A program made the position numbers and the translations under genes. Source: Candidatus Saccharimonadota bacterium (GTDB lineage: Bacteria > Patescibacteriota > Gracilibacteria > UBA4473). Taken from it: 32,000 nucleotides of DNA. The DNA is taken from the NCBI GenBank assembly GCA_965228485.1, contig OZ245819.1, forward strand, positions 1,170,001 to 1,202,000. Reading direction: 5' to 3'. The notes below the pieces were generated by a model. That model saw nothing but the letters and a program-made list of their open reading frames with translations, made no database searches and was not told the DNA's origin. Shown here in pieces: positions 7,208-29,368 of this stretch; the first letter of the stretch is position 1; the number at the start of each line of letters is the position of its first letter.

Positions 7208-7280
7208 ATGGTTATGATAGAACTTTTTACCTCAAATACCATTTCCATTTTAGCAAAAAACAATTATCTTTTTGGACGCG

Positions 7281-11024: not shown

Positions 11025-12880
<1,856 letters not shown>

Positions 12881-12944
12881 TGATATTAGATTATGGAATA
12901 AAGATTTAGTTTTCAATTCATTTTAACGATACAATGTTGTCTGA

Positions 12945-14270: not shown

Positions 14271-14311
14271 TTGATTATTCGTTGGTTGCTCGCTAAAAGT
14301 ATCTAGAAATT

Positions 14312-15376
14312 ATGGAATCAATTCACGTTGCCAATCTTGCTCAAATTGCTCTGTATGCACTCTTTGCATTTGTTCTTGCTATGGGGGCTTTCCCTCCGTT
14401 TATTCAGTTTGTACAGAACTATAAGCTGACTCAGAAAATCCGAGAAGAAGGTCTGTCTGGAGGGGTGGCAAAGTTGTTTAATAAACTTCACGCTCACAAA
14501 GCTGGTACGCCGACTATGGGAGGGGCGGTTATCATTGGATCAGTTGTGATTACGGTGATTTTTTCTCGTATATTGGCTTATTTTGGTTTAGTAGAGCATT
14601 CATTGCTTAATCGGGGAGAAACTTATTTGCCCATTATTACTTTGATCTTTGTAGGGGTTCTAGGACTTCTTGATGATTATCTAAATATCACTGAAAAATC
14701 AGCTCAGAAAGGTTTATCAGCTCGAGTAAAAATGTGGACACTCTTGGGCTTTGCTTTTGCTGGAGCTATGTGGTTTGTGTTTAAATTGGAATGGTCACTA
14801 ATTCATGTGCCAGGGATTGGAGATTTTGATATTGGTTTGCTCTATTTTCCTTTGTTTATGTTTATTGTGGTAGGGGTTTCCAACTCGGTAAATTTAACCG
14901 ATGGTTTGGATGGACTTGCGGGAGGGCTTTTGGCGATTGCTTATTCCGTATTCGCAGTTATTGCTTATTTTTATGGACTGCCTATTTTGGCTACATTTTG
15001 TGTGGTTGTCGCGGCTAGTATTTTTGCCTTTCTTTGGTTTAATGTCCCCCCCGCCTCTATCTATATGGGAGATACGGGGAGTTTGGCATTGGGGGCGACT
15101 TTAGGAGTTATTGCGATGCTTTGTGATGCCGTAATCGTCTTGGCGGTAGTAGGTTTGATTTTTGTACTGGAAACTATTTCAGTCATGTTGCAGCTTTTCT
15201 GGAAAAAACGTTTTAAGAAAAAATTATTTCTCATTGCTCCATTACATCATCACTTTGAAGCCAAGGGATGGTCTGAGACTCAGATTGTTATGAGATTTTG
15301 GTTGATGGGGGGAGTTTTTGGCATTATGGGACTTTTAATCGGTCTTATTGGTATGGGAGAAGGATTTGGTCTTTAG
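14312..15376 (+). CDS. mraY: Phospho-N-acetylmuramoyl-pentapeptide transferase
   Basis: 354 aa. Motifs seen: KAGTPTMGG, NSVNLTDGLDGLAGG, MGDTGSLALG and APLHHHFE. Confidence 0.95.
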   Translation: MESIHVANLAQIALYALFAFVLAMGAFPPFIQFVQNYKLTQKIREEGLSGGVAKLFNKLHAHKAGTPTMGGAVIIGSVVITVIFSRILAYFGLVEHSLLNRGETYLPIITLIFVGVLGLLDDYLNITEKSAQKGLSARVKMWTLLGFAFAGAMWFVFKLEWSLIHVPGIGDFDIGLLYFPLFMFIVVGVSNSVNLTDGLDGLAGGLLAIAYSVFAVIAYFYGLPILATFCVVVAASIFAFLWFNVPPASIYMGDTGSLALGATLGVIAMLCDAVIVLAVVGLIFVLETISVMLQLFWKKRFKKKLFLIAPLHHHFEAKGWSETQIVMRFWLMGGVFGIMGLLIGLIGMGEGFGL

Positions 15377-15424
15377 AAATTGATTTTAAGGATTATTTTT
15401 TTAGACTCTTTTCAGTTTTTTTGT

Positions 15425-15514
15425 GGAGAGGTGACAGAGTGGTCGAATGTGCTCGCCTGGAACGCGGGTGTGGGGGCAACTCCACCGTGGGTTCGAATCC
15501 CATCCTCTCCGCCA
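15425..15514 (+). tRNA. tRNA-Ser (anticodon GGA), class II with long variable arm, CCA encoded
   Basis: Acceptor is GGAGAGG/CCTCTCC. Anticodon stem CTCGC/GCGGG carries loop CTGGAAC (GGA). The long variable arm is TGTGGGGGCAACTCCACC. The T loop is TTCGAAT, with discriminator G plus CCA. Confidence 0.95.
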
Positions 15515-15633
15515 GAAAAACAGACCATAAGGCATTAAATTAATCTCGGCATACAGAAGATTGATCCCTCTCTCATGGAGATAAATTGAGTCAGTAACCC
15601 AATACTTATCTACCTAAACTTTAAAAAGAAAAA

Positions 15634-16467
15634 CTATTTAATAGTTTGCCCTGGCAAAATAAGATCAAGAACTCCGTGCCCCATCCATTTTTTAATAAAT
15701 TTGGCTACTTTCCCATCTAGGTTTGGCGTGTACCTTCTTTTAGGCGCACTACTTTGAGCTGCATGCAGTACCGCCTTGGCTATTGTGTCTGGGGACGCTC
15801 CGTTATCAACTCCTTTACTCCAGTGGGCTCGAAAATTTTTCATCTGCGTTTTATAAGGCGCGGAATTCGGATGTTTTTCACATTTATCAAGGTAGGGCAA
15901 ACTGGCGTTATCAATATCCGTATCGATATACCCCGGCTCTATAAGCGATACCCTAATACCAAAGGCTTTCACCTCCATTCGAAGTGCATCTCCAAGCGCT
16001 TGTTGTGCATGTTTAGTGGCTGGGTACCAAGCCATACCGGGCAACGAAACATGACCAGCACTTGAAGAACAGATAATAACTCGACCAAATTGTTGGGCTC
16101 TCATATGTGGTAAAACCGCGGTAAGCACTCTAGCATTCCCCAACACATTCACATCAAACTGGTAGCGCACATCTTCAATATCTTGCAGCTCTACTGGTCC
16201 CAAAAGACAAAATCCCGCATTGGCAAATAACGCATCAATACGCCCTTCTTTTTCAATGATCGTATCCACCACTTTTTGCACGGCCTCATCATCGGTTACA
16301 TCACAGTGCATAGCGATGGCTCCAAGAGCTTCTAAATCTTTCATTAGTTCGACACGACGAGCCACCCCATAGACTTTAAATCCATTTTCCTGCAGCATTT
16401 TTGCCGAAGCGTGTCCGATTCCAGTTGAGGCACCAGTAACCAGTGCAATTTTTTGAGAATTTTTCAT
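15634..16467 (-). CDS. Short-chain dehydrogenase/reductase (classical SDR)
   Basis: 277 aa. It has the cofactor motif TGASTGIG, NAG, and the catalytic S...YPATK (YxxxK). Confidence 0.9.
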   Translation of the reverse strand: MKNSQKIALVTGASTGIGHASAKMLQENGFKVYGVARRVELMKDLEALGAIAMHCDVTDDEAVQKVVDTIIEKEGRIDALFANAGFCLLGPVELQDIEDVRYQFDVNVLGNARVLTAVLPHMRAQQFGRVIICSSSAGHVSLPGMAWYPATKHAQQALGDALRMEVKAFGIRVSLIEPGYIDTDIDNASLPYLDKCEKHPNSAPYKTQMKNFRAHWSKGVDNGASPDTIAKAVLHAAQSSAPKRRYTPNLDGKVAKFIKKWMGHGVLDLILPGQTIK

Positions 16468-16477
16468 GAAATTTTAA

Positions 16478-16506
16478 ATGAGTACTTACTCACTTTCTAA
16501 ATTATA
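16478..16506 (-). promoter_or_regulatory. Operator-like motif plus -10 box upstream of the SDR gene
   Basis: On the plus strand, ATGAGTACTTACTCACTTT (16478-16496) differs from 3571-3589 only in the 3 central bases. On the minus strand, TATAAT (16501-16506) precedes it. The downstream leader TTTAAAATTT..ATG is shared with the hydrolase operon. Confidence 0.5.
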
Positions 16507-16833
16507 ACTTGGAAGTCAAATTAATTTTTTAACGCGCTAATGAACTCTCAATTCATTTAAAGCTCTAAAGTTTTTTCCAAATTTTTGATTTTTTAGAAAT
16601 GGTTCTGAGTGAGCATTAACCCGTGTTTTTAGAAAAATATTTTTTCATTGAAAATTTTTTTTGTCAATTAATTTTTTAGTTTTTAGTTTTTTACTTAAAG
16701 GATATCTTCACTTTTTTTTATCGTCTTTTTCTGAGCACAAAAATAGTTCTTAATCTTGACTTAATGTTCACATAGTAGAACTTTAAATAATTTTATGTTC
16801 CAATAAACAGGTACAAAAATGTGATTTTTTAAA

Positions 16834-19800
16834 ATGAATCAAAAATTCCCTCATCGGTTGTTGGTTTCACTGTGTGTCGTATCTTTCGTATTTTTTAATA
16901 ACGCCTCCCTTGCTCTGGCTGCCCCTGGGGGAGTGCAGACTGATCTGGGGTTGTGGCTCAAGGCTAATGCCGGCGTCTTCTCTGATGCGGGGACAACCGC
17001 CGCCATCGATGGAGTGGGTATTCAGGAGTGGCAGGATCAATCCAGTGCCGGTATTGACGCAACAGAAGCAACCAATAGTAATCAGAGACCGACTTTTCAG
17101 AGCGATGCAGCTAACCTGGTAAATTTTAATCCCTCCGTTCTCTTTGATGGGTCAAATGACAGATTTTTGCTGGATAGCAATAGTATAGCCCTGGGAAACA
17201 CGAGCTATTCGTTTCGCGCGGTCAGTACGGTAGGAACCAATAGCAATGGAAACGCCATTCTCGGTAGCGCCGGTACCGGTACTCGAAAAAGTACATTATT
17301 AGAGCTTAACGCGGGGAGTCCTCCGCAGGTGTTTTCTTTCTGGCAGGCTACTAATTTGAGCGCGGATGCCACCAATGTTGACAACGATGATATTGTGATT
17401 GTAGGAGATAATTATGACAATACGGTCGGGCGAACGGTTTTTTCCAATGGTCTGCAAATAGGCTCAAACGCAAATACTAGTCATAGTGCGACAGATGGGC
17501 TCATAAAAGTAGGAGAGTTTTCTACTACTGGGAGTACCGCTGACCGGTTTACTGGGCGAATGATGGAAGTTATCGCGTATTCGAATACTAAAAGTTCAAC
17601 CGAACTTAATAGGATAGATGCTTATCTGGCGCTCAAATACGGAATCACTCTTGATCAAGCGGTCGCCACCGCCTACTTAGCCAGTGATGGTAGTACCAAG
17701 ATGTGGGACGAGACGGTCAATGCTACCTATAACAACGATATCTTTGGTATTGGGCGTGATGACGGATCGAACCTAGATCAAAGGGTATCAAAATCTCTAA
17801 ATGATGATGCCATCCTGACGGTAGCATTAGATAATGACTTTACCAGTGCCAATAATGACGCCAGTCGTACTACAGCCTTTGGTAGTGATTTAAGTTTTCT
17901 GATGTTTGCCAACAATAATGGGGCGGCCACCTTTGCGATAGCCGGTACTAACCAAGTACTTGACCGCGTGTGGCAAGTTCAAGAAGAAGGGACGGTAGGC
18001 TCCGTGCAACTACAGTTTGACATGGATGACGCGGACTTTGACATAGCAACGCTAGACAGATACGAGCTACTGGTTGATACCGATAACGATGCAGACTTTA
18101 GTGACGAAACCCCTGTCAGCATGACTAATACTACGGGAAGTCTCTGGAGCACTTCCTTTGATTTCACTGATGGACAGCTGTTCACGGTAGCCCTTGGAAA
18201 CGCCGCTCCAACTGACATCGCCCTTGATGGAGGTAACAGCGATACGATTATTGAAAATACCGTGGCCAACACGGATATTGGTACGCTCACCACAACAGAC
18301 TCTGATGTTGCAGACACCCATGCTTACAGTTTGGCCTGTAGTGTGGCTGGGGCTGACGACAGCCATTTCGCCATTGTTGGAGATAAACTGCAAAATACGA
18401 CTGTCTTTGATTATGAAACGCCCGTAGACGCTAACACGGACAATAGCTATGAAGTCTGTGTTCGTGTCACTGATTCAGGAGTGGGCAATGCGACCTATGA
18501 TGAAATTCTGACGGTGGCGGTTCAGGATATTGTCGACGAAACGCCACCCGTGATCAGTGAAACCACTCCGGTCGATACCCCTACGAATGATAGCACCCCA
18601 AGCTACACTTTCACTACCGACGAAGCCGGGACTATCACCTATGGAGGTAGCTGTAGTAGTGCCACTACGGCGGCCGTATTCGGACCAAACACCGTTGACT
18701 TTAATACCTTAGCGGAAGGCCCCTACACCGATTGTACAATCACGGTTACTGATGCCGCTAGTAATGTGTCTAATCAAATTACCGTTAGTAGCTTTACGAT
18801 TGATACAACGGCGCCAACGACGACCCCACCAAGTCCAGGAGTAACGACGCCGAGCTCAGGACCGGTGAATGCAATTGTGACCATTCCTGCTGGTAGTTGT
18901 GGAGCGGATTACGCGAACGGAACGGCGATATGGAATACGAATCCAGCGGGACAAATTAATCCTCACCCAACGACGGTGAGTTTGGATGCGAGTGGAGACT
19001 ACCCACAAACGGTACTGGATACTTCTGGTTCTACTGGGACCTTTGATCTCACCTTAACTTGTACAGACCAAGCCGGAAACCCAGGGCCGACGTTAGATCC
19101 AGCGGTGGGGGGCTTTACGGCGGACCATGTGGCGCCAGTAATAGGGATAGATTCGCCGCTGATGGGAGATGATATTTTTAATGCGACAGAAGCCGGAACG
19201 GTGACGATAAGTGGTTCCACTGATGCAGAAAACGGTCAAACCGTTTCCGTTTCCGTCGGCACCGTTAGTGGCAACACGACTGCCTCTTCTGGAACCTGGT
19301 CACTCGTCTTAGACCTCTCTGGCGAAGCCAACGGGTCTTTGGCCATAACCGCAGACGTCAGCGACATCGCTGGTAATGCGGCTACACAAGCAACGGCTTC
19401 TATTACTAAAGATGCGGCCACTCCTACTACAACACCACCTACTCCTGGAGTAACAACGCCTACGGCAGGGCCGGTGGGTGCCACGGTGACGATACCGGCG
19501 GGAAGTTGTGGAGCGGATTACGCGAACGGAACGGCGATATGGAATACGAATCCAGCGGGACAAATTAATCCTCACCCAACGACGGTGAGTTTGGATGCGA
19601 GTGGAGACTACCCACAAACGGTACTGGATACTTCTGGTTCTACTGGGACCTTTGATCTCACCTTAACTTGTACAGACCAAGCCGGAAACCCAGGGCCGAC
19701 GTTAGATCCAGCGGTGGGGGGCTTTACGGCGGACCATGTGGCGCCAGTAATAGGGATAGATTCGCCGCTGATGGGAGATGATATTTTTAATGCGACAGAA

Positions 19801-22800
19801 GCCGGAACGGTGACGATAAGTGGTTCCACTGATGCAGAAAACGGTCAAACCGTTTCCGTTTCCGTCGGCACCGTTAGTGGCAACACGACTGCCTCTTCTG
19901 GAACCTGGTCACTCGTCTTAGACCTCTCTGGCGAAGCCAACGGGTCTTTGGCCATAACCGCAGACGTCAGCGACATCGCTGGTAATGCGGCTACACAAGC
20001 AACGGCTTCTATTACTAAAGATGCGGCCACTCCTACTACAACACCACCTACTCCTGGAGTAACAACGCCTACGGCAGGGCCGGTGGGTGCCACGGTGACG
20101 ATACCGGCGGGAAGTTGTGGAGCGGATTACGCGAACGGAACGGCGATATGGAATACGAATCCAGCGGGACAAATTAATCCTCACCCAACGACGGTGAGTT
20201 TGGATGCGAGTGGAGACTACCCACAAACGGTACTGGATACTTCTGGTTCTACTGGGACCTTTGATCTCACCTTAACTTGTACAGACCAAGCCGGAAACCC
20301 AGGGCCGACGTTAGATCCAGCGGTGGGGGGCTTTACGGCGGACCATGTGGCGCCAGTAATAGGGATAGATTCGCCGCTGATGGGAGATGATATTTTTAAT
20401 GCGACAGAAGCCGGAACGGTGACGATAAGTGGTTCCACTGATGCAGAAAACGGTCAAACCGTTTCCGTTTCCGTCGGCACCGTTAGTGGCAACACGACTG
20501 CCTCTTCTGGAACCTGGTCACTCGTCTTAGACCTCTCTGGCGAAGCCAACGGGTCTTTGGCCATAACCGCAGACGTCAGCGACATCGCTGGTAATGCGGC
20601 TACACAAGCAACGGCTTCTATTACTAAAGATGCGGCCACTCCTACTACAACACCACCTACTCCTGGAGTAACAACGCCTACGGCAGGGCCGGTGGGTGCC
20701 ACGGTGACGATACCGGCGGGAAGTTGTGGAGCGGATTACGCGAACGGAACGGCGATATGGAATACGAATCCAGCGGGACAAATTAATCCTCACCCAACGA
20801 CGGTGAGTTTGGATGCGAGTGGAGACTACCCACAAACGGTACTGGATACTTCTGGTTCTACTGGGACCTTTGATCTCACCTTAACTTGTACAGACCAAGC
20901 CGGAAACCCAGGGCCGACGTTAGATCCAGCGGTGGGGGGCTTTACGGCGGACCATGTGGCGCCAGTAATAGGGATAGATTCGCCGCTGATGGGAGATGAT
21001 ATTTTTAATGCGACAGAAGCCGGAACGGTGACGATAAGTGGTTCCACTGATGCAGAAAACGGTCAAACCGTTTCCGTTTCCGTCGGCACCGTTAGTGGCA
21101 ACACGACTGCCTCTTCTGGAACCTGGTCACTCGTCTTAGACCTCTCTGGCGAAGCCAACGGGTCTTTGGCCATAACCGCAGACGTCAGCGACATCGCTGG
21201 TAATGCGGCTACACAAGCAACGGCTTCTATTACTAAAGATGCGGCCACTCCTACTACAACACCACCTACTCCTGGAGTAACAACGCCTACGGCAGGGCCG
21301 GTGGGTGCCACGGTGACGATACCGGCGGGAAGTTGTGGAGCGGATTACGCGAACGGAACGGCGATATGGAATACGAATCCAGCGGGACAAATTAATCCTC
21401 ACCCAACGACGGTGAGTTTGGATGCGAGTGGAGACTACCCACAAACGGTACTGGATACTTCTGGTTCTACTGGGACCTTTGATCTCACCTTAACTTGTAC
21501 AGACCAAGCCGGAAACCCAGGGCCGACGTTAGATCCAGCGGTGGGGGGCTTTACGGCGGACCATGTGGCGCCAGTAATAGGGATAGATTCGCCGCTGATG
21601 GGAGATGATATTTTTAATGCGACAGAAGCCGGAACGGTGACGATAAGTGGTTCCACTGATGCAGAAAACGGTCAAACCGTTTCCGTTTCCGTCGGCACCG
21701 TTAGTGGCAACACGACTGCCTCTTCTGGAACCTGGTCACTCGTCTTAGACCTCTCTGGCGAAGCCAACGGGTCTTTGGCCATAACCGCAGACGTCAGCGA
21801 CATCGCTGGTAATGCGGCTACACAAGCAACGGCTTCTATTACTAAAGATGCGGCCACTCCTACTACAACACCACCTACTCCTGGAGTAACAACGCCTACG
21901 GCAGGGCCGGTGGGTGCCACGGTGACGATACCGGCGGGAAGTTGTGGAGCGGATTACGCGAACGGAACGGCGATATGGAATACGAATCCAGCGGGACAAA
22001 TTAATCCTCACCCAACGACGGTGAGTTTGGATGCGAGTGGAGACTACCCACAAACGGTACTGGATACTTCTGGTTCTACTGGGACCTTTGATCTCACCTT
22101 AACTTGTACAGACCAAGCCGGAAACCCAGGGCCGACGTTAGATCCAGCGGTGGGGGGCTTTACGGCGGACCATGTGGCGCCAGTAATAGGGATAGATTCG
22201 CCGCTGATGGGAGATGATATTTTTAATGCGACAGAAGCCGGAACGGTGACGATAAGTGGTTCCACTGATGCAGAAAACGGTCAAACCGTTTCCGTTTCCG
22301 TCGGCACCGTTAGTGGCAACACGACTGCCTCTTCTGGAACCTGGTCACTCGTCTTAGACCTCTCTGGCGAAGCCAACGGGTCTTTGGCCATAACCGCAGA
22401 CGTCAGCGACATCGCTGGTAATGCGGCTACACAAGCAACGGCTTCTATTACTAAAGATGCGGCCACTCCTACTACAACACCACCTACTCCTGGAGTAACA
22501 ACGCCTACGGCAGGGCCGGTGGGTGCCACGGTGACGATACCGGCGGGAAGTTGTGGAGCGGATTACGCGAACGGAACGGCGATATGGAATACGAATCCAG
22601 CGGGACAAATTAATCCTCACCCAACGACGGTGAGTTTGGATGCGAGTGGAGACTACCCACAAACGGTACTGGATACTTCTGGTTCTACTGGGACCTTTGA
22701 TCTCACCTTAACTTGTACAGACCAAGCCGGAAACCCAGGGCCGACGTTAGATCCAGCGGTGGGGGGCTTTACGGCGGACCATGTGGCGCCAGTAATAGGG

Positions 22801-25800
22801 ATAGATTCGCCGCTGATGGGAGATGATATTTTTAATGCGACAGAAGCCGGAACGGTGACGATAAGTGGTTCCACTGATGCAGAAAACGGTCAAACCGTTT
22901 CCGTTTCCGTCGGCACCGTTAGTGGCAACACGACTGCCTCTTCTGGAACCTGGTCACTCGTCTTAGACCTCTCTGGCGAAGCCAACGGGTCTTTGGCCAT
23001 AACCGCAGACGTCAGCGACATCGCTGGTAATGCGGCTACACAAGCAACGGCTTCTATTACTAAAGATGCGGCCACTCCTACTACAACACCACCTACTCCT
23101 GGAGTAACAACGCCTACGGCAGGGCCGGTGGGTGCCACGGTGACGATACCGGCGGGAAGTTGTGGAGCGGATTACGCGAACGGAACGGCGATATGGAATA
23201 CGAATCCAGCGGGACAAATTAATCCTCACCCAACGACGGTGAGTTTGGATGCGAGTGGAGACTACCCACAAACGGTACTGGATACTTCTGGTTCTACTGG
23301 GACCTTTGATCTCACCTTAACTTGTACAGACCAAGCCGGAAACCCAGGGCCGACGTTAGATCCAGCGGTGGGGGGCTTTACGGCGGACCATGTGGCGCCA
23401 GTAATAGGGATAGATTCGCCGCTGATGGGAGATGATATTTTTAATGCGACAGAAGCCGGAACGGTGACGATAAGTGGTTCCACTGATGCAGAAAACGGTC
23501 AAACCGTTTCCGTTTCCGTCGGCACCGTTAGTGGCAACACGACTGCCTCTTCTGGAACCTGGTCACTCGTCTTAGACCTCTCTGGCGAAGCCAACGGGTC
23601 TTTGGCCATAACCGCAGACGTCAGCGACATCGCTGGTAATGCGGCTACACAAGCAACGGCTTCTATTACTAAAGATGCGGCCACTCCTACTACAACACCA
23701 CCTACTCCTGGAGTAACAACGCCTACGGCAGGGCCGGTGGGTGCCACGGTGACGATACCGGCGGGAAGTTGTGGAGCGGATTACGCGAACGGAACGGCGA
23801 TATGGAATACGAATCCAGCGGGACAAATTAATCCTCACCCAACGACGGTGAGTTTGGATGCGAGTGGAGACTACCCACAAACGGTACTGGATACTTCTGG
23901 TTCTACTGGGACCTTTGATCTCACCTTAACTTGTACAGACCAAGCCGGAAACCCAGGGCCGACGTTAGATCCAGCGGTGGGGGGCTTTACGGCGGACCAT
24001 GTGGCGCCAGTAATAGGGATAGATTCGCCGCTGATGGGAGATGATATTTTTAATGCGACAGAAGCCGGAACGGTGACGATAAGTGGTTCCACTGATGCAG
24101 AAAACGGTCAAACCGTTTCCGTTTCCGTCGGCACCGTTAGTGGCAACACGACTGCCTCTTCTGGAACCTGGTCACTCGTCTTAGACCTCTCTGGCGAAGC
24201 CAACGGGTCTTTGGCCATAACCGCAGACGTCAGCGACATCGCTGGTAATGCGGCTACACAAGCAACGGCTTCTATTACTAAAGATGCGGCCACTCCTACT
24301 ACAACACCACCTACTCCTGGAGTAACAACGCCTACGGCAGGGCCGGTGGGTGCCACGGTGACGATACCGGCGGGAAGTTGTGGAGCGGATTACGCGAACG
24401 GAACGGCGATATGGAATACGAATCCAGCGGGACAAATTAATCCTCACCCAACGACGGTGAGTTTGGATGCGAGTGGAGACTACCCACAAACGGTACTGGA
24501 TACTTCTGGTTCTACTGGGACCTTTGATCTCACCTTAACTTGTACAGACCAAGCCGGAAACCCAGGGCCGACGTTAGATCCAGCGGTGGGGGGCTTTACG
24601 GCGGACCATGTGGCGCCAGTAATAGGGATAGATTCGCCGCTGATGGGAGATGATATTTTTAATGCGACAGAAGCCGGAACGGTGACGATAAGTGGTTCCA
24701 CTGATGCAGAAAACGGTCAAACCGTTTCCGTTTCCGTCGGCACCGTTAGTGGCAACACGACTGCCTCTTCTGGAACCTGGTCACTCGTCTTAGACCTCTC
24801 TGGCGAAGCCAACGGGTCTTTGGCCATAACCGCAGACGTCAGCGACATCGCTGGTAATGCGGCTACACAAGCAACGGCTTCTATTACTAAAGATGCGGCC
24901 ACTCCTACTACAACACCACCTACTCCTGGAGTAACAACGCCTACGGCAGGGCCGGTGGGTGCCACGGTGACGATACCGGCGGGAAGTTGTGGAGCGGATT
25001 ACGCGAACGGAACGGCGATATGGAATACGAATCCAGCGGGACAAATTAATCCTCACCCAACGACGGTGAGTTTGGATGCGAGTGGAGACTACCCACAAAC
25101 GGTACTGGATACTTCTGGTTCTACTGGGACCTTTGATCTCACCTTAACTTGTACAGACCAAGCCGGAAACCCAGGGCCGACGTTAGATCCAGCGGTGGGG
25201 GGCTTTACGGCGGACTTAAGCAAACCGACTCCCCCAGTAGTGTATCCTATCACTACGACTACGGACCCGATCACGGGAACCAGCGAACCAGGTTCGATTA
25301 TTACGGTTTCGCCGCTAACTTGTGATAACACTCCCGTAGTGACTGATACTTCAGGGAATTGGAGTTGTGATGTGACGACTTCTTCTCCACTCACTGCTTT
25401 AACAACGATAGATGTGACCGCCACTGATTCAGCCGGGAATGTCAGTGATCCAACAATGACCACTGTAGTTGACCACACTACAACGACCGTACCACCAACC
25501 GTCGACCCTACTGATGGAGACCCCGTAACCGGTACCGGAGAACCGGGGGCCCTGATTACCGTTAAAGACAACTTGGGAAATATTCTCTGTCAAACATCCG
25601 TTTTCCCAAACGGCACTTTCATCTGTAGTCCGGTCAGTCCAGCTCCAAGTCCTGGAGATACCCTTGAGGTGACTCAAAATATAGCTCCGAACGGCGAATC
25701 AGCGCCAACAGAATTGATGGTTATCGATCCAACAGCGGTTGTGTTACCGCCTACCATCAGTCCAACCGACGGAGATGTAATAACCGGAACGGCAGAGCCA

Positions 25801-27438
25801 AATGCTACGGTGCGAATTATTGATCCAACTTCGGGATTAACGTTGTGTACGGCTACGGCGGATGGATCCGGGAACTTTAGCTGTGATCTGAGCCCAGACC
25901 TTACTGATGGACAAACCGTCAACGTCACCGCCACCGTAGATGGAACCTCTTCATTGCCAACTACTATTACGGTTGATAGTAGTGATTCTGATGGAGACGG
26001 AATAGATAACACTGATGAGACAGGGGCCATTAATGGCGGAGATGGAAATGGTGATGGGACGCCTGATGATGAACAAACATCAGTCACCTCTGTCACGAAC
26101 CCCGTTACCAGCCAACCAGTCACTATGTCAGTCACGGGTGGAAACTGTCGTGTGATTGATGGTTATGATGTCGAGTTTGAAAGTACTCAAACAGCTCAAG
26201 ACAGTGCCTTTGATTACCCGATCGGGTTGTTTGATTTTGAACTCTATTGTACTAACGTCGGACAGAGTACGGACGTAACGTTCTATCTAGATAAAGAGTA
26301 TGATACCACGGGATGGGTCTGGAGAAAGATCAATCGGAGCGCGGGAGTTTATAGCACTTTTAATGAAACAGTTACCTATGGAACCGCTACTATAGGCACT
26401 GATACGGTGACAACCGTAAATATTGTAGTAGCGGACAATAATAGCGATGATGAAGATTCTACAGCTAATGCTCGTATTCTTGATCCCTCTGGACCGGCTT
26501 TGCCAGCACCTACTAGTTCCGGCTCCGGAGGTGGCGGAGGCAGTGCTCCGATTCGTCATATAATTACTATGTGTAGCTATGACACAGGGAAGTGTGAAAA
26601 TATTTTCCCTACGGGAAATGATGAAACTTATAAAACGTACCGAGACTGTTACCAATCTGGTAGTAAATCCGGGACAGAGTGTGCCACTGAGTGGGCGTTG
26701 GCCAAAAATTATGTAGCGGTAGAAGACTTCGTACCGACCACGGTTCAACCGGCTCAAACCGGTTCTCAAGCCGAAGAGATTTCGACTTCTGGCCTAGAGG
26801 AATCAAAATCAGTTATTAGTGACGATGGCCGCTGTGAGACCATCACCTACCGACGTTATCCAGGTCGACGAGGCTCTGGAGCTTCTGCTGGCTTATTTGG
26901 CGACACGCTTGAGACGCATGCGGCTTACCCTTATTTGGTAGACCTAAACGAACAAAACATTGTAAATGGTGACGCAGAGACGGGGAATGCTCGGTTGGAT
27001 AGTGAAATTAGTCGGGCGGAGGTGATGAAAATTATGACGATAGCCCGTCAAGATTCACTAAAACAAGGCGAATGCGCTGAGTTAACAACTTTTCCAGATG
27101 TTAACACTGGAGCTTGGTATCACCACTTTGTCCAAAATATGGAACAGCAAGATATAGTGCACGGTTATAATGATGGTCTCTACCGACCAGGTAAAAATAT
27201 TATTAAAGCCGAAATTTATAAAATTCTGGCCCTCTCGTTTGGCTACATTACCTATGATGAAGCGAAACAAATAGCGGCTGAACGTGGCATTGAATGGTAT
27301 GTGCCTTATATTGAGGCCTTGGAAAATAATGTTGCTCTACCAAGCGCAATCAGGGCAGCTGAGCCCGGCGAGGGAATGACGAGGGGAGAGATGTTTACCA
27401 TGCTCTCGTTGGTGCTCCAAAAGGTTGACGAACTTTAG
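16834..27438 (+). CDS. Giant (3534 aa) secreted, SLH-anchored repetitive adhesin-like surface protein
   Basis: A single uninterrupted ORF. The signal peptide ends ...ASLALA/AP. A LamG/ConA-like region spans about aa 35-280 (IQEWQDQSSAG...NQRPTF...FDGSNDRF...YLALKYGITLDQ). A cadherin-like module is NAAPTDIALDG...TDSDVADTHAYSL...FDYE...VQDIVDE. The stalk has 10.4 copies of a 203-aa two-module Ig-like repeat. Three further Ig-like modules follow (P.V.PTDGD.ITGT.EP). Next comes a TSP3-like Asp-rich stretch, DSDGDGIDNTDE...GDGNGDGTPDDE. The C-terminal SLH-type repeats read FPDVNTGAWYHHFVQNMEQQDIVHGYNDGLYRPGKNIIKAEIYKIL. Confidence 0.85.
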   Translation: MNQKFPHRLLVSLCVVSFVFFNNASLALAAPGGVQTDLGLWLKANAGVFSDAGTTAAIDGVGIQEWQDQSSAGIDATEATNSNQRPTFQSDAANLVNFNPSVLFDGSNDRFLLDSNSIALGNTSYSFRAVSTVGTNSNGNAILGSAGTGTRKSTLLELNAGSPPQVFSFWQATNLSADATNVDNDDIVIVGDNYDNTVGRTVFSNGLQIGSNANTSHSATDGLIKVGEFSTTGSTADRFTGRMMEVIAYSNTKSSTELNRIDAYLALKYGITLDQAVATAYLASDGSTKMWDETVNATYNNDIFGIGRDDGSNLDQRVSKSLNDDAILTVALDNDFTSANNDASRTTAFGSDLSFLMFANNNGAATFAIAGTNQVLDRVWQVQEEGTVGSVQLQFDMDDADFDIATLDRYELLVDTDNDADFSDETPVSMTNTTGSLWSTSFDFTDGQLFTVALGNAAPTDIALDGGNSDTIIENTVANTDIGTLTTTDSDVADTHAYSLACSVAGADDSHFAIVGDKLQNTTVFDYETPVDANTDNSYEVCVRVTDSGVGNATYDEILTVAVQDIVDETPPVISETTPVDTPTNDSTPSYTFTTDEAGTITYGGSCSSATTAAVFGPNTVDFNTLAEGPYTDCTITVTDAASNVSNQITVSSFTIDTTAPTTTPPSPGVTTPSSGPVNAIVTIPAGSCGADYANGTAIWNTNPAGQINPHPTTVSLDASGDYPQTVLDTSGSTGTFDLTLTCTDQAGNPGPTLDPAVGGFTADHVAPVIGIDSPLMGDDIFNATEAGTVTISGSTDAENGQTVSVSVGTVSGNTTASSGTWSLVLDLSGEANGSLAITADVSDIAGNAATQATASITKDAATPTTTPPTPGVTTPTAGPVGATVTIPAGSCGADYANGTAIWNTNPAGQINPHPTTVSLDASGDYPQTVLDTSGSTGTFDLTLTCTDQAGNPGPTLDPAVGGFTADHVAPVIGIDSPLMGDDIFNATEAGTVTISGSTDAENGQTVSVSVGTVSGNTTASSGTWSLVLDLSGEANGSLAITADVSDIAGNAATQATASITKDAATPTTTPPTPGVTTPTAGPVGATVTIPAGSCGADYANGTAIWNTNPAGQINPHPTTVSLDASGDYPQTVLDTSGSTGTFDLTLTCTDQAGNPGPTLDPAVGGFTADHVAPVIGIDSPLMGDDIFNATEAGTVTISGSTDAENGQTVSVSVGTVSGNTTASSGTWSLVLDLSGEANGSLAITADVSDIAGNAATQATASITKDAATPTTTPPTPGVTTPTAGPVGATVTIPAGSCGADYANGTAIWNTNPAGQINPHPTTVSLDASGDYPQTVLDTSGSTGTFDLTLTCTDQAGNPGPTLDPAVGGFTADHVAPVIGIDSPLMGDDIFNATEAGTVTISGSTDAENGQTVSVSVGTVSGNTTASSGTWSLVLDLSGEANGSLAITADVSDIAGNAATQATASITKDAATPTTTPPTPGVTTPTAGPVGATVTIPAGSCGADYANGTAIWNTNPAGQINPHPTTVSLDASGDYPQTVLDTSGSTGTFDLTLTCTDQAGNPGPTLDPAVGGFTADHVAPVIGIDSPLMGDDIFNATEAGTVTISGSTDAENGQTVSVSVGTVSGNTTASSGTWSLVLDLSGEANGSLAITADVSDIAGNAATQATASITKDAATPTTTPPTPGVTTPTAGPVGATVTIPAGSCGADYANGTAIWNTNPAGQINPHPTTVSLDASGDYPQTVLDTSGSTGTFDLTLTCTDQAGNPGPTLDPAVGGFTADHVAPVIGIDSPLMGDDIFNATEAGTVTISGSTDAENGQTVSVSVGTVSGNTTASSGTWSLVLDLSGEANGSLAITADVSDIAGNAATQATASITKDAATPTTTPPTPGVTTPTAGPVGATVTIPAGSCGADYANGTAIWNTNPAGQINPHPTTVSLDASGDYPQTVLDTSGSTGTFDLTLTCTDQAGNPGPTLDPAVGGFTADHVAPVIGIDSPLMGDDIFNATEAGTVTISGSTDAENGQTVSVSVGTVSGNTTASSGTWSLVLDLSGEANGSLAITADVSDIAGNAATQATASITKDAATPTTTPPTPGVTTPTAGPVGATVTIPAGSCGADYANGTAIWNTNPAGQINPHPTTVSLDASGDYPQTVLDTSGSTGTFDLTLTCTDQAGNPGPTLDPAVGGFTADHVAPVIGIDSPLMGDDIFNATEAGTVTISGSTDAENGQTVSVSVGTVSGNTTASSGTWSLVLDLSGEANGSLAITADVSDIAGNAATQATASITKDAATPTTTPPTPGVTTPTAGPVGATVTIPAGSCGADYANGTAIWNTNPAGQINPHPTTVSLDASGDYPQTVLDTSGSTGTFDLTLTCTDQAGNPGPTLDPAVGGFTADHVAPVIGIDSPLMGDDIFNATEAGTVTISGSTDAENGQTVSVSVGTVSGNTTASSGTWSLVLDLSGEANGSLAITADVSDIAGNAATQATASITKDAATPTTTPPTPGVTTPTAGPVGATVTIPAGSCGADYANGTAIWNTNPAGQINPHPTTVSLDASGDYPQTVLDTSGSTGTFDLTLTCTDQAGNPGPTLDPAVGGFTADHVAPVIGIDSPLMGDDIFNATEAGTVTISGSTDAENGQTVSVSVGTVSGNTTASSGTWSLVLDLSGEANGSLAITADVSDIAGNAATQATASITKDAATPTTTPPTPGVTTPTAGPVGATVTIPAGSCGADYANGTAIWNTNPAGQINPHPTTVSLDASGDYPQTVLDTSGSTGTFDLTLTCTDQAGNPGPTLDPAVGGFTADLSKPTPPVVYPITTTTDPITGTSEPGSIITVSPLTCDNTPVVTDTSGNWSCDVTTSSPLTALTTIDVTATDSAGNVSDPTMTTVVDHTTTTVPPTVDPTDGDPVTGTGEPGALITVKDNLGNILCQTSVFPNGTFICSPVSPAPSPGDTLEVTQNIAPNGESAPTELMVIDPTAVVLPPTISPTDGDVITGTAEPNATVRIIDPTSGLTLCTATADGSGNFSCDLSPDLTDGQTVNVTATVDGTSSLPTTITVDSSDSDGDGIDNTDETGAINGGDGNGDGTPDDEQTSVTSVTNPVTSQPVTMSVTGGNCRVIDGYDVEFESTQTAQDSAFDYPIGLFDFELYCTNVGQSTDVTFYLDKEYDTTGWVWRKINRSAGVYSTFNETVTYGTATIGTDTVTTVNIVVADNNSDDEDSTANARILDPSGPALPAPTSSGSGGGGGSAPIRHIITMCSYDTGKCENIFPTGNDETYKTYRDCYQSGSKSGTECATEWALAKNYVAVEDFVPTTVQPAQTGSQAEEISTSGLEESKSVISDDGRCETITYRRYPGRRGSGASAGLFGDTLETHAAYPYLVDLNEQNIVNGDAETGNARLDSEISRAEVMKIMTIARQDSLKQGECAELTTFPDVNTGAWYHHFVQNMEQQDIVHGYNDGLYRPGKNIIKAEIYKILALSFGYITYDEAKQIAAERGIEWYVPYIEALENNVALPSAIRAAEPGEGMTRGEMFTMLSLVLQKVDEL
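18895..25215 (+). repeat. Tandem array of 609-bp (203-codon) in-frame repeats, 10 full units plus 231 bp, apparently 100% identical
   Basis: The identity run begins at agttgtggagcgg (18895, next copy 19504) and ends at ggctttacggcggac (25215, first copy 19125). The forward translation and antisense shadow ORFs in two further frames recur with identical sequence at exact +609 steps. Confidence 0.9.
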
Positions 27439-27607
27439 GGTTTTTGACCTAGCTAAGTTTGTCTTCCTCCTTTTCATGCCTATATTCCTGCTGAGACTTC
27501 GTCAGAGACTCTGATTGTGTAATGAAGCGACAAACCACGAAAAATATCTTTTTTAACGTGGTTTATGGCGGCCTCAATTATGTATTATTCATTAAATATT
27601 ACCCTGA

Positions 27608-28025
27608 ATGGTCACCACCAAAAAAACATTTAACTTTCCCGCTAAACTGAAACCGGCCAAAGAAGACAACGGTCGTTGTTTCTTCACAGCTGAAGTCGAA
27701 TCGGATTTTCTTTGTGCCAAATGCTTTAGTGTCGGGGGTGTACGGCACTAAAATGATTCCCAAACGAGTGGTTTGGCTCGAATTTGAGACCGATAGGGGT
27801 GATCTCGTCTGGGTGAAGTTTGCGCTGAAACAAAGAGACATTAAGAGGCTTTCTTAATTCAGTCCTACGAAGGAAAAAAACTTTGATAAGTCATGAAATT
27901 TGAAACTGAAACAAGAATGGTTAGATTTATTAAATATGAAGGATTTTTGAATAGAAACGTATTTGATCCTCAGTTAGCCCCTAGATTGTCTGGAGAAACT
28001 TTCTTGCCCCCTTTCACACGAAATT
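27608..28025 (+). pseudogene. rpoB: Decayed, internally deleted relic of an rpoB 5' region
   Basis: The ATG at 27608 gives MVTTKKTFNFPAKLKPAKEDNGRCFFTAEVESDF, against real RpoB MPKVTKKLNLPAKLKPMKTENGRCFYTSEVGDNF (19/34 identical). After a +1 shift, IFFVPNALVSGVYGTKMIPKRVVWLEFETDRGDLVWVKF aligns with RpoB IFFAPNTALPGAVTGKMIPKRGAWLEIESDKRGLIWVKV. Further weak matches (SYEGKK / GYESNKE; FLNRNVFD / FLDSMFFD) are interrupted by stops. Confidence 0.65.
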
Positions 28026-28199
28026 AATCTAAAAGCCTTTCATTATTACATGGGAGCAGATGTGACTTGTGAGTTGACATATGAAGCAAACCCTAATCGC
28101 TCGGAGGAAAATGCCCGCCACAAATTAAAATCATTTATCTTTTCTTTACTCGTAATGGAGGATTTGTAATAATCAAACTAGCTTTAAATTTTACACGAA

Positions 28200-28781
28200 A
28201 TGAAACAAAAATTATTACTACTTTCGTTGGCTTTGTTACTTCCAAGTTTGGCTCTGGCTCACAGCGGAGAGGGGGTGATGGGAGGTTTTGTTAGTGGTTT
28301 TAAACACCCGATCATGGGATGGGACCATCTGGTAGCTATGGTGGCAGTTGGTCTCTGGGGAGCTATTTTACTCCGCCCTGCTATTTGGGTATTGCCTATT
28401 ACATTTCCAATGGTGATGGCGCTTGGAGCAGTTTTAGGTATATTAGGTCTCCCGGTGCCGTTTATAGAGCCTGGAATTGCTTTGTCAGGATTGGTTCTTG
28501 GTCTAGTTATCTTATTGGCTTGGAAGGCTCCTTTGTGGGCGGCTATGGCTTTGGTTTCGATTTTTGCAATTTTTCATGGACATGCTCATGGTACGGAACT
28601 TCCAGAAGCGGCTAATCCATTAACTTATGCTGTAGGTTTTGTATTGGGAACAGGATTGCTGCATTTAGCGGGTATTGGGCTTGGATTTTTGGACAAATTA
28701 CCAAAAGGAATCTATTTGATTCGAGGTTTTGGGGGGATAATTGCTGTTTGTGGTTTGGCTTTTTTAATGGGATGGTTGTAA
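28200..28781 (+). CDS. hupE: HupE/UreJ family metal (Ni/Co) transport protein
   Basis: 193 aa. The signal peptide ends in ALA/HSGEG, leaving His at the mature N-terminus. Motifs GFKHPIMGWDHLVAMVAVGLW and FHGHAHGTE are family hallmarks. Confidence 0.85.
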   Translation: MKQKLLLLSLALLLPSLALAHSGEGVMGGFVSGFKHPIMGWDHLVAMVAVGLWGAILLRPAIWVLPITFPMVMALGAVLGILGLPVPFIEPGIALSGLVLGLVILLAWKAPLWAAMALVSIFAIFHGHAHGTELPEAANPLTYAVGFVLGTGLLHLAGIGLGFLDKLPKGIYLIRGFGGIIAVCGLAFLMGWL

Positions 28782-29368
28782 GTAATTTGAGAAAAATACT
28801 TTTTTATTTATGTGCCTTATGTTTGCAACCGCTGAACATAGCACAAGCACATAACTTTTTTGGTGATACTCAGCCTTTACTTAATGGGATAGCTCATCCA
28901 TTTCTGACGATTTCTCATTTATTGTTAATCATCTCATTGGGACTTGTTTTGTTTTCTCAGAAAAAACCAGAACAGTTTCTTGGTGTTTTTTTGATAACAT
29001 TATTAGGAGGTTTTTTGGGGCAATGGTTTTTATCTGGAGTGCCATTTGAGCTTGGGTTTAGTTTGTTGTTGATTCTTTGGGGAGTGGTGGTGGCGCTACA
29101 CTATTTAATGTCTTTTCGTATACTAATTCTACCGCTAGCTGTGTCGGGCTTGATTATTGGTTTAGATACTGTCTCAGAGAGTCAGGATGTCATTATGAAT
29201 TTAGTCTTCTATTTGGGCTCAATTTTTGGAGTCGTTGCTTTTTTTAGTTATGTGTTGATTCTTAAAGATTTCATAAAGCAAGAATGGCACTGGGTAATCA
29301 TAAGAACTTTGGGAGGATGGATGTTTGCGGTGGGATTGATGATGTTGGCATTTTATTTTAGTGTCTAA
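28772..29368 (+). CDS. Divergent HupE/UreJ-like membrane protein (second tandem paralog)
   Basis: The signal peptide ends AQA/HNFF. GIAHPFLTISHLLLIISLGL parallels the HP..G.DH motif, but the HGxAHG motif is absent. The ATG at 28772 is preferred over the track TTG at 28748 and overlaps hupE by 10 nt. Confidence 0.6.
   Translation: MVVSNLRKILFYLCALCLQPLNIAQAHNFFGDTQPLLNGIAHPFLTISHLLLIISLGLVLFSQKKPEQFLGVFLITLLGGFLGQWFLSGVPFELGFSLLLILWGVVVALHYLMSFRILILPLAVSGLIIGLDTVSESQDVIMNLVFYLGSIFGVVAFFSYVLILKDFIKQEWHWVIIRTLGGWMFAVGLMMLAFYFSV

What the first reader, a model, noticed from the sequence alone, without database searches (positions are those of the whole stretch)
16834..27438. 10.6-kb gene for a 3534-aa SLH-anchored, LamG/cadherin-tipped giant surface protein
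One uninterrupted ORF occupies a third of the window.

Module order read from the translation:
- Sec signal peptide.
- LamG/ConA-like jellyroll.
- One cadherin-like module.
- About 2100 aa of Ig-like stalk.
- Three different Ig-like modules (PTDGD.ITGT.EP pattern).
- An Asp-rich TSP3-like Ca-binding stretch (DSDGDGIDNTDE).
- A beta-sandwich-like region (FDYPIGLFDFELYC).
- A Gly linker and a Cys-rich segment.
- C-terminal SLH-type repeats.

SLH at the C-terminus implies anchoring to the wall polymer. The putative binding modules (LamG, cadherin) would then sit at the far end of a long stalk. In a small-genome organism such an investment suggests cell-cell or host attachment. This exact architecture is not one I can assign to a described family.
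Basis: partly seen in the sequence, partly recalled or inferred. Interest (0 to 1): 0.7.

Follow-up and report, generated by a model that had tools for sequence, protein, structure and literature searches.

The report
Giant wall-anchored adhesin with identical repeats
This is a real 3534-residue cell-surface adhesin of a small-genome Gracilibacteria-type bacterium: a sugar-binding-like tip held on a stalk of ten identical repeats and fastened to the cell wall by an SLH anchor, which makes it an ordinary member of a known class found in an unusual host lineage.

Summary
The ORF is real: 16834..27438, + strand, 3534 aa, TAG stop. A complete 1.33-Mb "Candidatus Altimarinota" chromosome carries an intact orthologue of 2715 aa.

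- The N-terminal 440 aa fold as a ConA/LamG-like jelly roll, but match no LamG profile. Database homologues carry Pfam PF26628.
- One cadherin-like module follows.
- The "FDYPIGLFDFELYC" region is a choice-of-anchor U domain.
- The C-terminus is a three-repeat SLH trimer. Its model matches only the SpaA and Sap SLH structures. The residues of two of their three ligand grooves are invariant in 32 relatives.

Nine units are 100% identical in DNA. The orthologue has 6.5 copies.

The gene therefore fits the fibrillar-adhesin / "Periscope protein" class, here SLH-anchored, in Patescibacteria. Large surface proteins and SLH proteins are already reported in that group.

The 5' tract (tRNA-Ser end, SDR gene, tip) is 96-100% identical to the relative, against 66-75% for housekeeping genes. 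That indicates recent lateral exchange.

Copy number needs read-level confirmation. Ligand and host are unknown.

The parts
15425..15514 (+). tRNA-Ser(GGA). The tract shared at 96-100% identity with the relative L004 starts inside its 3' end, at 15496.
   Evidence: ARAGORN; Rfam; alignment; identity profile
15634..16467 (-). SDR-family oxidoreductase gene, divergently oriented. It lies inside the near-identical shared tract (16 differences in 834 nt against L004). No functional link to the adhesin is shown.
16834..16920 (+). Sec-type signal peptide, aa 1-29 (MNQKFPHR / LLVSLCVVSFVFF / NNASLALA|AP). The conserved mature domain of the family starts at PGGV.
   Evidence: read from the translation and the family consensus; no signal-peptide predictor was available
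16921..18240 (+). Tip, aa 30-469: a ConA/LamG-like beta-jelly roll followed by a second beta domain. The hits carry Pfam PF26628, which is not in the local Pfam copy.
   Evidence: 264 homologues in many phyla; AF2 pLDDT 90, pTM 0.92; Foldseek against PDB; no Pfam, NCBIfam or PDB sequence hit
18247..18522 (+). Cadherin-like domain, aa 472-563
   Evidence: Pfam PF00028, E=2.3e-5 and 25.1 bits alone, 40.9 bits for the whole protein; 5 of 32 anchor-family relatives also carry Cadherin
18550..18816 (+). Single Big_13-type Ig-like domain, aa 573-661
   Evidence: Pfam Big_13
18820..25218 (+). Stalk, aa 663-2795: 10.5 tandem copies of a 609-nt / 203-aa unit. Each unit holds two Ig-like domains, the first with two Cys and the second of Ca_tandemer / MpIBP-RII type. 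Units 2-10 are 100% identical in DNA.
   Evidence: Big_13 with 13 stretches and 253.8 bits; Ca_tandemer 43.7 bits; PDB 4P99 at E=2.7e-5
25234..25974 (+). Three non-identical Big_6 Ig-like domains, aa 2801-3047
   Evidence: Pfam PF17936, 3 stretches, 106-126 bits
25975..26058 (+). Asp-rich, Ca-binding-like motifs: DSSDSDGDGIDNTDE and NGGDGNGDG
   Evidence: sequence only. No TSP3 profile hit. Relatives have TSP3_bac repeats at this position.
26203..26502 (+). Choice-of-anchor U domain, aa 3124-3223, containing FDYPIGLFDFELYC
   Evidence: NCBIfam NF041766, 45.7 bits against a cut-off of 32
26515..26715 (+). Gly linker followed by a conserved four-Cys helical hairpin, aa 3228-3294
   Evidence: conserved in relatives; two helices modelled at pLDDT about 91-94
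26830..27435 (+). Cell-wall anchor, aa 3333-3534: a conserved lead-in (C..Y.RYP..RG.G) and three SLH repeats forming a pseudo-trimer

Best explanation
The gene encodes a fibrillar ("Periscope"-type) adhesin of a monoderm, small-genome bacterium of the Gracilibacteria/Altimarinota type (Patescibacteria).

Proposed mechanism:
1. The protein is exported by Sec.
2. Its C-terminal three-SLH trimer binds non-covalently to a secondary cell-wall polymer, most likely one carrying pyruvylated ManNAc.
3. About 26 Ig-like or cadherin-like beta-sandwich domains form a rod. These are 21 domains from the 10.5 identical 203-aa units, one Big_13, one cadherin and three Big_6. I infer a length of about 100 nm from roughly 4-5 nm per domain.
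4. The rod is probably stiffened by Ca2+ and projects an N-terminal ConA-like, lectin-type tip away from the wall.
5. The tip binds a glycan or surface ligand on another cell (host or prey) or on a particle.

The DNA-identical repeats allow unequal recombination, so stalk length changes between lineages: 10.5 units here and 6.5 in the orthologue. The tip-encoding 5' tract has recently been exchanged between diverged genomes.

Shown here: the ORF, the module identities, the SLH fold, conservation of the groove residues, repeat identity, the copy-number difference and the identity contrast. Inferred: export, wall binding, rod geometry, the ligand, and a role in host attachment.
For: - ORF and orthologues.
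- SLH sequence evidence: Pfam; Sap 3PYW at E=7e-9.
- SLH relatives: 24,085 at E<=1e-3. Of these, 35 score <=1e-30, and those listed match near the C-terminus of 127-2715-aa proteins, most over nearly the whole 200-aa query. All 32 aligned relatives match Pfam SLH and carry varied passengers: DUF285, LRR, FG-GAP, TSP3, cadherin and Big domains.
- SLH fold: the model matches only SpaA/Sap SLH trimers.
- Groove residues: the residues that form the two ligand-binding grooves of SpaA (SLH-Arg43, Gly29, Trp13; PMC6081394) correspond to R3394/G3444/W3488 and R3517/G3379/W3428. All six are invariant in the 32 relatives. The third groove is degenerate, as in SpaA.
- Tip: ConA-like fold.
- Stalk: identical repeats, homologous to the Ca2+-rigidified MpIBP RII extender (Ca_tandemer).
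- Copy number: 10.5 against 6.5 units.
- Selection on the repeat unit: 52 synonymous against 13 non-synonymous codon differences between genomes, which indicates purifying selection.
- Taxon: the closest relatives found (the three genome-collection loci) are all Gracilibacteria/Altimarinota MAGs.
- Literature: related Absconditicoccaceae encode 8-10 SLH proteins and surface proteins >1500 aa with ConA and Ca-adhesin repeats (PMC13059738). The class is defined in PMC8286594 and PMC8201768. Lectin tips on Periscope proteins are described in the abstract of PMC9999234.
Against: - There is no expression, localisation or binding evidence.
- SLH1 and SLH3 are not detected by Pfam on their own.
- A survey of 15 CPR genomes reported loss of SLH and of the pyruvyltransferase CsaB in CPR (10.1101/2021.05.31.446380). 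The window contains no csaB, so the wall ligand is unverified.
- The tip matches no LamG profile and no solved structure by sequence. Its conserved residues (E216, Y235, Y240, G241, Y252, D280 of the 440-aa query) lie in a stretch running from the end of the jelly-roll domain into the second beta domain, and their role is unknown.
- Perfect identity of nine 609-nt units could partly reflect assembly or polishing.
- The two genomes compared for copy number belong to different species, not strains.
Confidence: 0.75

Rival explanations
1. It is the S-layer protein itself (or a structural envelope protein): the SLH trimer anchors a self-assembling lattice rather than a protruding adhesin.
For: - SLH trimers are the classic S-layer anchors (Sap, SpaA).
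- The authors of PMC13059738 interpret SLH proteins of related Patescibacteria as S-layer components.
Against: - The best-scoring relatives share the anchor module but carry unrelated adhesin-type passengers (LRR, DUF285, FG-GAP, cadherin). That pattern suits a general anchoring module, not one lattice protein.
- The architecture (terminal lectin-like domain plus an array of identical Ig-like domains homologous to an adhesin extender) is that of fibrillar adhesins.
- From my own knowledge, the SLH trimer is N-terminal in Sap and SpaA, whereas here it is C-terminal.
Confidence: 0.08
2. It is a wall-anchored enzyme or nutrient-capture protein. The ConA-like N-terminal module would be a glycoside hydrolase, lyase or carbohydrate-binding module acting on polymers, as in SLH-anchored glycanases of Firmicutes.
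For: - The ConA-like fold is shared by GH16-type hydrolases (my own knowledge) and by carbohydrate-binding modules such as AbnA domain 4.
- Invariant acidic residues E216 and D280 occur in the family.
Against: - The top structural matches are non-catalytic lectin or receptor-binding domains: the trans-sialidase lectin domain, tetanus/botulinum neurotoxin receptor-binding (Hc) fragments and the PilC lectin module.
- No enzyme family is hit in Pfam or NCBIfam.
- A 2100-aa spacer is not typical for enzymes.
Confidence: 0.1
3. The gene is real, but the array of ten perfectly identical units is an assembly or polishing artefact. The true copy number or inter-unit variation would then differ, so the 3534-aa length is unreliable.
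For: - There are no mismatches over 5.7 kb of unit-to-unit comparison. The orthologue in a finished chromosome shows 1-7 differences between units.
- Homologous genes are broken by contig ends or an N-gap in short-read MAGs.
- The exact protein is not on record elsewhere.
Against: - The frame is kept across every junction. The array has a diverged first unit and a defined half unit at the end, as the orthologue does.
- DNA-identical repeats are the defining trait of Periscope proteins seen in long-read genomes (PMC8201768).
Confidence: 0.2

Closest known systems
Periscope proteins / fibrillar adhesins (SasG, Aap, Pls, Sgo_0707, Rib/alpha C; PMC8201768, PMC8286594, PMC9999234)
   Same: - Signal peptide, N-terminal ligand-binding domain (legume/ConA-like lectin in Aap, SasG and Pls), rod of tandem folded domains with very high DNA identity, and a C-terminal wall anchor.
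- Repeat number differs between genomes.
   Different: - The anchor is a non-covalent SLH trimer, not LPXTG/sortase.
- The repeat unit is a 203-aa double Ig-like module, not G5-E, SHIRT or Rib.
- The organism is an uncultured Patescibacteria lineage.
- The copy-number difference is seen between two diverged genomes, not between strains.
MpIBP (Marinomonas primoryensis ice-binding adhesin) region II extender, PDB 4P99; NCBIfam Ca_tandemer
   Same: - The second half of each repeat unit is homologous (E=2.7e-5 to 4P99; Ca_tandemer 43.7 bits).
- It is also a long run of identical Ig-like extender domains carrying distal binding modules.
   Different: - From my own knowledge, MpIBP is a type-1-secreted RTX adhesin of a diderm, held in the outer membrane by its N-terminus with ligand-binding domains near the C-terminus. 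Here the polarity is reversed, export is by Sec and the anchor is SLH.
- The Ca_tandemer score is below the curated cut-off of 50.
SLH anchors of SpaA (Paenibacillus alvei, 6CWC/7SV4) and Sap (Bacillus anthracis, 3PYW/6BT4)
   Same: - Three-repeat pseudo-trimer fold (TM 0.73-0.83).
- Arg43/Gly29/Trp13 triads of grooves G1 and G2 are conserved and the third groove is degenerate.
   Different: - Only 15-18% sequence identity.
- The trimer is C-terminal and is preceded by a lineage-specific cassette: choice-of-anchor U, Gly linker, four-Cys hairpin.
- The wall polymer and CsaB are unknown for this organism.
Large surface proteins and SLH proteins of Absconditicoccaceae (Vampirococcus, Absconditicoccus, Strigamonas; PMC13059738)
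   Same: - Same broad clade and lifestyle.
- Signal-peptide-bearing proteins >1500 aa with ConA, Ca-stabilised adhesin repeats and integrin-type domains; 8-10 SLH proteins per genome.
   Different: - The passages I read list large adhesion-domain proteins and SLH proteins separately. They do not describe this combined architecture or DNA-identical repeat arrays.
- This window shows no sign of UGA recoding.

Membership tests
Fibrillar adhesin / Periscope protein class | Adhesive or ligand-binding domain at the terminus distal to the anchor | tested here: met
   N-terminal ConA-like lectin fold followed by a cadherin-like domain. This is met at the level of fold; binding itself is untested.
Fibrillar adhesin / Periscope protein class | Stalk of tandem, highly similar folded domains with high DNA identity | tested here: met
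   10.5 units of 609 nt, nine of them 100% identical; Big_13 in 13 stretches
Fibrillar adhesin / Periscope protein class | Cell-surface anchoring motif or domain | tested here: met
   C-terminal SLH trimer
Fibrillar adhesin / Periscope protein class | Repeat-number (length) variation between genomes | tested here: met
   10.5 units here against 6.5 in L004. The two genomes are diverged species, so strain-level variation is not shown.
SLH cell-wall anchor (Pfam PF00395; SpaA/Sap type) | Profile match above the gathering score | tested here: met
   SLH2 scores 33-39 bits against 20.8. SLH1 and SLH3 alone give no Pfam hit, but they align with SLH repeats of relatives and of Sap.
SLH cell-wall anchor (Pfam PF00395; SpaA/Sap type) | Three repeats folding into the three-pronged pseudo-trimer | tested here: met
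   AF2 model with pLDDT 89. The 15 significant PDB matches are all SpaA or Sap SLH trimers, TM 0.73-0.83 over 175-187 columns.
SLH cell-wall anchor (Pfam PF00395; SpaA/Sap type) | Conserved ligand triad SLH-Trp13 / Gly29 / Arg43 in at least one groove | tested here: met
   R3394+G3444+W3488 and R3517+G3379+W3428 are invariant in 32 relatives. Residue roles are taken from PMC6081394. The correspondence is by repeat position, not by a superposed ligand.
SLH cell-wall anchor (Pfam PF00395; SpaA/Sap type) | Pyruvylated secondary cell-wall polymer and CsaB pyruvyltransferase in the same genome | not testable with these tools
   Only 32 kb of the genome is available, and none of the 20 flanking ORFs scanned hit a pyruvyltransferase family in Pfam. 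A survey reported CPR as lacking SLH/CsaB.
Laminin G / LamG (Pfam PF00054, PF02210, PF13385) | Profile match to a LamG family | tested here: not met
   No Pfam hit for aa 1-469 even at E<=10. Homologues carry PF26628, and a minority also carry PF13385.
Laminin G / LamG (Pfam PF00054, PF02210, PF13385) | ConA-like beta-jelly-roll fold | tested here: met
   Foldseek E about 1e-8 to ConA-like lectin or receptor-binding domains, TM up to 0.65 normalised by target length
Cadherin domain (PF00028) | Profile match above the gathering score of 28.8 bits | tested here: inconclusive
   40.9 bits for the whole protein, but 25.1 bits and E=2.3e-5 for the isolated region. The motifs ENT, DSD and D..DETP are visible by eye.
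Choice-of-anchor U domain (NCBIfam NF041766) | Profile match above the cut-off of 32 bits | tested here: met
   45.7 bits at aa 3124-3223, immediately upstream of the anchor module
Ca_tandemer / MpIBP RII extender (NCBIfam NF033510) | Profile match above the cut-off of 50 bits | tested here: not met
   43.7 bits. Homology is still likely, given PDB 4P99 at E=2.7e-5.
Bacterial TSP3 repeat (PF18884) | Profile match | tested here: not met
   No hit at E<=10 for aa 3045-3223; only the DSDGDGIDNTDE motif is present. Relatives have true TSP3_bac arrays at this position.

The most novel reading that the evidence does not exclude
The tip-encoding 5' part of the gene is a horizontally exchangeable host-recognition cassette. 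A tract running from the 3' end of tRNA-Ser through the SDR gene to the ConA-like and cadherin tip is 96-100% identical between two Gracilibacteria genomes whose housekeeping genes are only 66-75% identical. Episymbiotic lineages may therefore swap attachment specificity while keeping their own SLH anchor. The conserved pyruvate-binding grooves would also imply that an SLH / pyruvylated-polymer anchoring system operates in a CPR lineage reported to have lost it.
Probability: 0.3. Interest if true: 0.65.

Novelty: new member of a known kind. Interest (0 to 1): 0.4.

Why it matters
Patescibacteria are thought to live attached to other cells, yet few of their attachment molecules are defined. This gene is a concrete, testable candidate. 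It has a clear anchor (SLH trimer with conserved ligand grooves), a length-variable stalk and a lectin-like tip. It also shows that about 35 clusters of relatives, the closest of them in Gracilibacteria MAGs, reuse one C-terminal anchor module for many different passenger domains. The sharp identity contrast with a related genome suggests that attachment genes move between these lineages. None of this overturns current ideas. It extends the fibrillar-adhesin / Periscope concept to an uncultured phylum.

Tried and rejected
- **Foreign origin from base composition: rejected.** My first codon-position table gave GC3 = 0.62 for the repeats, but that segment was read out of frame. The in-frame values are GC1/2/3 = 0.56/0.62/0.46, against GC3 of 0.27-0.39 in neighbouring genes. 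The high GC (0.54) is therefore mostly amino-acid composition (Thr, Ala, Gly, Pro, Asp), with only a modest GC3 excess.
- **Genetic code 25 (UGA=Gly): no support.** This was expected for Gracilibacteria. No adjacent table-11 ORFs are joined by an in-frame TGA, and TGA occurs only at or outside the ends of the table-11 ORFs. The gene limits are unaffected either way.
- **Classical tRNA-integrated island: incomplete.** No second copy of the tRNA-Ser 3' end (23-mer, up to 3 mismatches) occurs anywhere in the window. No integrase-type Pfam hit was found among the 20 flanking ORFs scanned.
- **Homologues of the repeat unit:** none at E<=1e-3 in the word-indexed 5.8-billion-protein search.
- **Exact-protein look-up:** not on record.
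- **Metagenome scans:** a 31-mer from the tip region and the anchor alignment both returned nothing.
- **"PF26628" in the literature:** no papers.
- **Promoter and terminator scans around the gene:** at chance level.
Full report
**Observation**

The window holds one open frame from ATG 16834 to TAG 27438 on the + strand. It is 3534 codons long and covers 33% of the window. The stop is TAG, and the nearest upstream in-frame stop (TGA) lies 12 nt before the ATG. The limits therefore hold under code 11 and code 25. The 102-aa antisense ORFs that recur every 609 nt are a by-product of the repeat.

- The "2100-aa Ig-like stalk" is a tandem array of a 609-nt (203-aa) unit. Tandem Repeats Finder missed it because the period exceeds 500. 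The repeat finder and a direct comparison show 11 in-register copies.
- There is no mismatch between position i and i+609 over 18895..24606.
- Units 2-10 are 100% identical in DNA. Unit 1 differs in its first ~75 nt. Unit 11 is a half unit that leads into different sequence.

**Organism**

- The 20 flanking ORFs scanned include IF3, L20, Obg, TIM, class I aldolase, MraY and two HupE/UreJ genes.
- The genome-collection scan with the C-terminal region returned three loci, all in MAGs labelled Candidatus Gracilibacteria or Candidatus Altimarinota (Patescibacteria). One is a complete 1.33-Mb chromosome, OZ246423.1.
- The window gives no sign of UGA recoding.

**Orthologues**

- L004 (OZ246423.1) carries an intact 2715-aa orthologue with the same module order. 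It has 6 full units plus a diverged seventh half, and its units differ from each other by 1-7 nt.
- L003, from another Gracilibacteria MAG, has a 1768-aa homologue with the same order (ConA-like N-terminus, Ig-like repeats, Big_6, choice-of-anchor U, Cys-rich segment, SLH). Its repeats have diverged (34% identity).
- In a short-read MAG the homologue is interrupted by an N-gap.
- The gene is therefore real and conserved. The exact copy number here still needs read support.

**Modules, N-terminus to C-terminus**

1. aa 1-29 read as a Sec signal peptide ending ALA|AP. The conserved mature domain of the family starts at PGGV.
2. aa 30-469 hit nothing in local Pfam, NCBIfam or PDB sequences.
   - They have 264 homologues across Bacteroidota, Proteobacteria, Chloroflexi and others. 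All listed hits carry PF26628, and some also carry Laminin_G_3, T9SS or SLH domains.
   - An AF2 model built on 63 sequences has pLDDT 90.
   - Its first half matches ConA-like lectin or receptor-binding domains: trans-sialidase lectin domain, tetanus/botulinum neurotoxin receptor-binding (Hc) fragments, AbnA domain 4, the PilC lectin module and a phage tailspike.
   - "LamG/ConA-like" is thus right as a fold, but not as Pfam LamG membership.
3. aa 472-563 are cadherin-like (25 bits alone, 40.9 for the whole protein, cut-off 28.8).
4. aa 573-661 are a single Big_13 domain.
5. aa 663-2795 are the repeat array.
   - Each unit has two Ig-like halves.
   - The unit matches the Ca2+-rigidified MpIBP region II extender (4P99, E=2.7e-5). 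Its second half matches NCBIfam Ca_tandemer (43.7 bits, cut-off 50).
6. aa 2801-3047 are three distinct Big_6 domains.
7. DSSDSDGDGIDNTDE is TSP3-like by motif only.
8. The "FDYPIGLFDFELYC" region is a choice-of-anchor U domain (45.7 bits, cut-off 32).
9. A Gly linker and a conserved four-Cys helical hairpin follow.
10. aa 3333-3534 form the anchor.

**Anchor**

- Pfam detects one SLH repeat above threshold.
- The region aligns over two repeats with the Sap SLH domain (E=7e-9).
- An exhaustive HMMER search finds 24,085 relatives. Of these, 35 score E<=1e-30, and those listed match near the C-terminus of 127-2715-aa proteins, most over nearly the whole 200-aa query.
- All 32 aligned relatives match SLH and carry different passengers.
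- The AF2 model (pLDDT 89) matches only SpaA and Sap SLH trimers, with TM 0.73-0.83.
- In SpaA the ligand 4,6-pyruvyl-ManNAc is held by Arg43 of one repeat, Gly29 of the next and Trp13 of the third. Two grooves work and one does not (PMC6081394).
- Here the equivalent triads R3394/G3444/W3488 and R3517/G3379/W3428 are invariant across the 32 relatives. The third groove is degenerate (K3458, no Gly in SLH3, no Trp in SLH1).
- This is good indirect evidence for binding of a pyruvylated wall polymer.
- Caveat: a survey of 15 CPR genomes reported loss of SLH and CsaB, and I could not look for csaB outside this window.

**Evolution**

- Against L004, housekeeping genes are 66-75% identical in DNA.
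- The tract 15496-18895 is 96-100% identical. It covers the last 19 nt of tRNA-Ser, the SDR gene, the intergenic region and the tip.
- Within that tract there are 16 differences in 834 nt in the SDR gene and 31 in 2040 nt in the tip.
- The repeats are 87.6% identical and the Big_6-to-anchor 3' part (25213-27438) 89%. Similarity ends at the stop codon.
- The unit consensus differs between genomes at 73 of 609 nt, with 52 synonymous and 13 non-synonymous codon changes. Within each genome the units are identical or nearly so.
- Together this means concerted evolution under purifying selection, plus a recent lateral exchange of at least the 5' tract.
- Across the deeper comparison with L003, the anchor is the best conserved part.
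- The [SDR-adhesin] block is inverted relative to the MraY-Obg-IF3-TIM block between the two genomes.
- The gene's high GC (0.46-0.54 against 0.38-0.41) is mainly amino-acid composition. My first GC3 figure for the repeats was out of frame and is corrected.

**Interpretation**

- The protein fits the fibrillar-adhesin / Periscope class: terminal binding domain, rod of DNA-identical folded repeats, wall anchor and variable repeat number (PMC8286594, PMC8201768).
- Staphylococcal members of that class also carry lectin tips (PMC9999234).
- Related Absconditicoccaceae are already reported to encode several SLH proteins and surface proteins >1500 aa with ConA and Ca-adhesin repeats (PMC13059738).
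- I rate it a new member of a known kind, of moderate interest.
- The most interesting open points are the apparent lateral exchange of the tip and the implied SLH/pyruvyl-polymer anchoring in a CPR lineage.

Noticed in passing
window 15425-15514; L004 1707-1725 and 1844-1862: The near-identical tract shared with L004 begins inside the 3' end of tRNA-Ser(GGA). L004 has no complete tRNA there. It has two direct copies of the tRNA 3' end, one exact and one with 3 mismatches, about 120 nt apart, just upstream of the shared tract. This resembles leftover attachment sites of an integrative element. However, no second copy is present anywhere in the window, and no integrase-type Pfam hit was found among the flanking ORFs scanned.
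   Followed up: partly
whole window: There is no sign of UGA=Gly recoding, although the nearest relatives are labelled Gracilibacteria/Altimarinota. No adjacent table-11 ORFs are joined by an in-frame TGA, and TGA occurs only at or outside the ends of the table-11 ORFs. The genes at 3604-4581 and 4578-5126 end in TGA, the first with an ATGA overlap.
   Followed up: partly
window 11049-27438 versus L004 1982-16874: Gene order differs between the two genomes. The [SDR-adhesin] block is inverted relative to the MraY, Wzy-like, Obg, IF3 and TIM block.
   Followed up: no
window 27439-28199: A 760-nt stretch downstream of the adhesin has no ORF over 80 aa, no Rfam match and no similarity to the sequence downstream of the orthologue.
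   Followed up: partly
window 7272-8948: A 558-aa protein with no Pfam or NCBIfam match lies next to TIM. ORFs of 556-559 aa sit next to TIM in the two related Gracilibacteria loci L001 and L004, and the L004 one aligns in DNA at 67%.
   Followed up: no
window 28200-28781 and 28748-29368: Two adjacent, slightly overlapping HupE/UreJ-family genes. The second matches much more weakly.
   Followed up: no
L001 about 120-210: The homologous adhesin gene in the short-read MAG JAHDBZ010000036.1 is interrupted by a run of N inside a repeated motif. Such genes are evidently fragmented in short-read assemblies.
   Followed up: no
relatives P0127-P0158 (search): One C-terminal cassette (choice-of-anchor U, Gly linker, four-Cys hairpin, three SLH repeats) recurs in many of the 14 relatives whose sequences were read. 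A few lack the choice-of-anchor U or Cys-rich part. It follows unrelated passengers: LRR, DUF285, FG-GAP with cadherin, and long TSP3 arrays. It looks like a lineage-specific anchoring module.
   Followed up: partly
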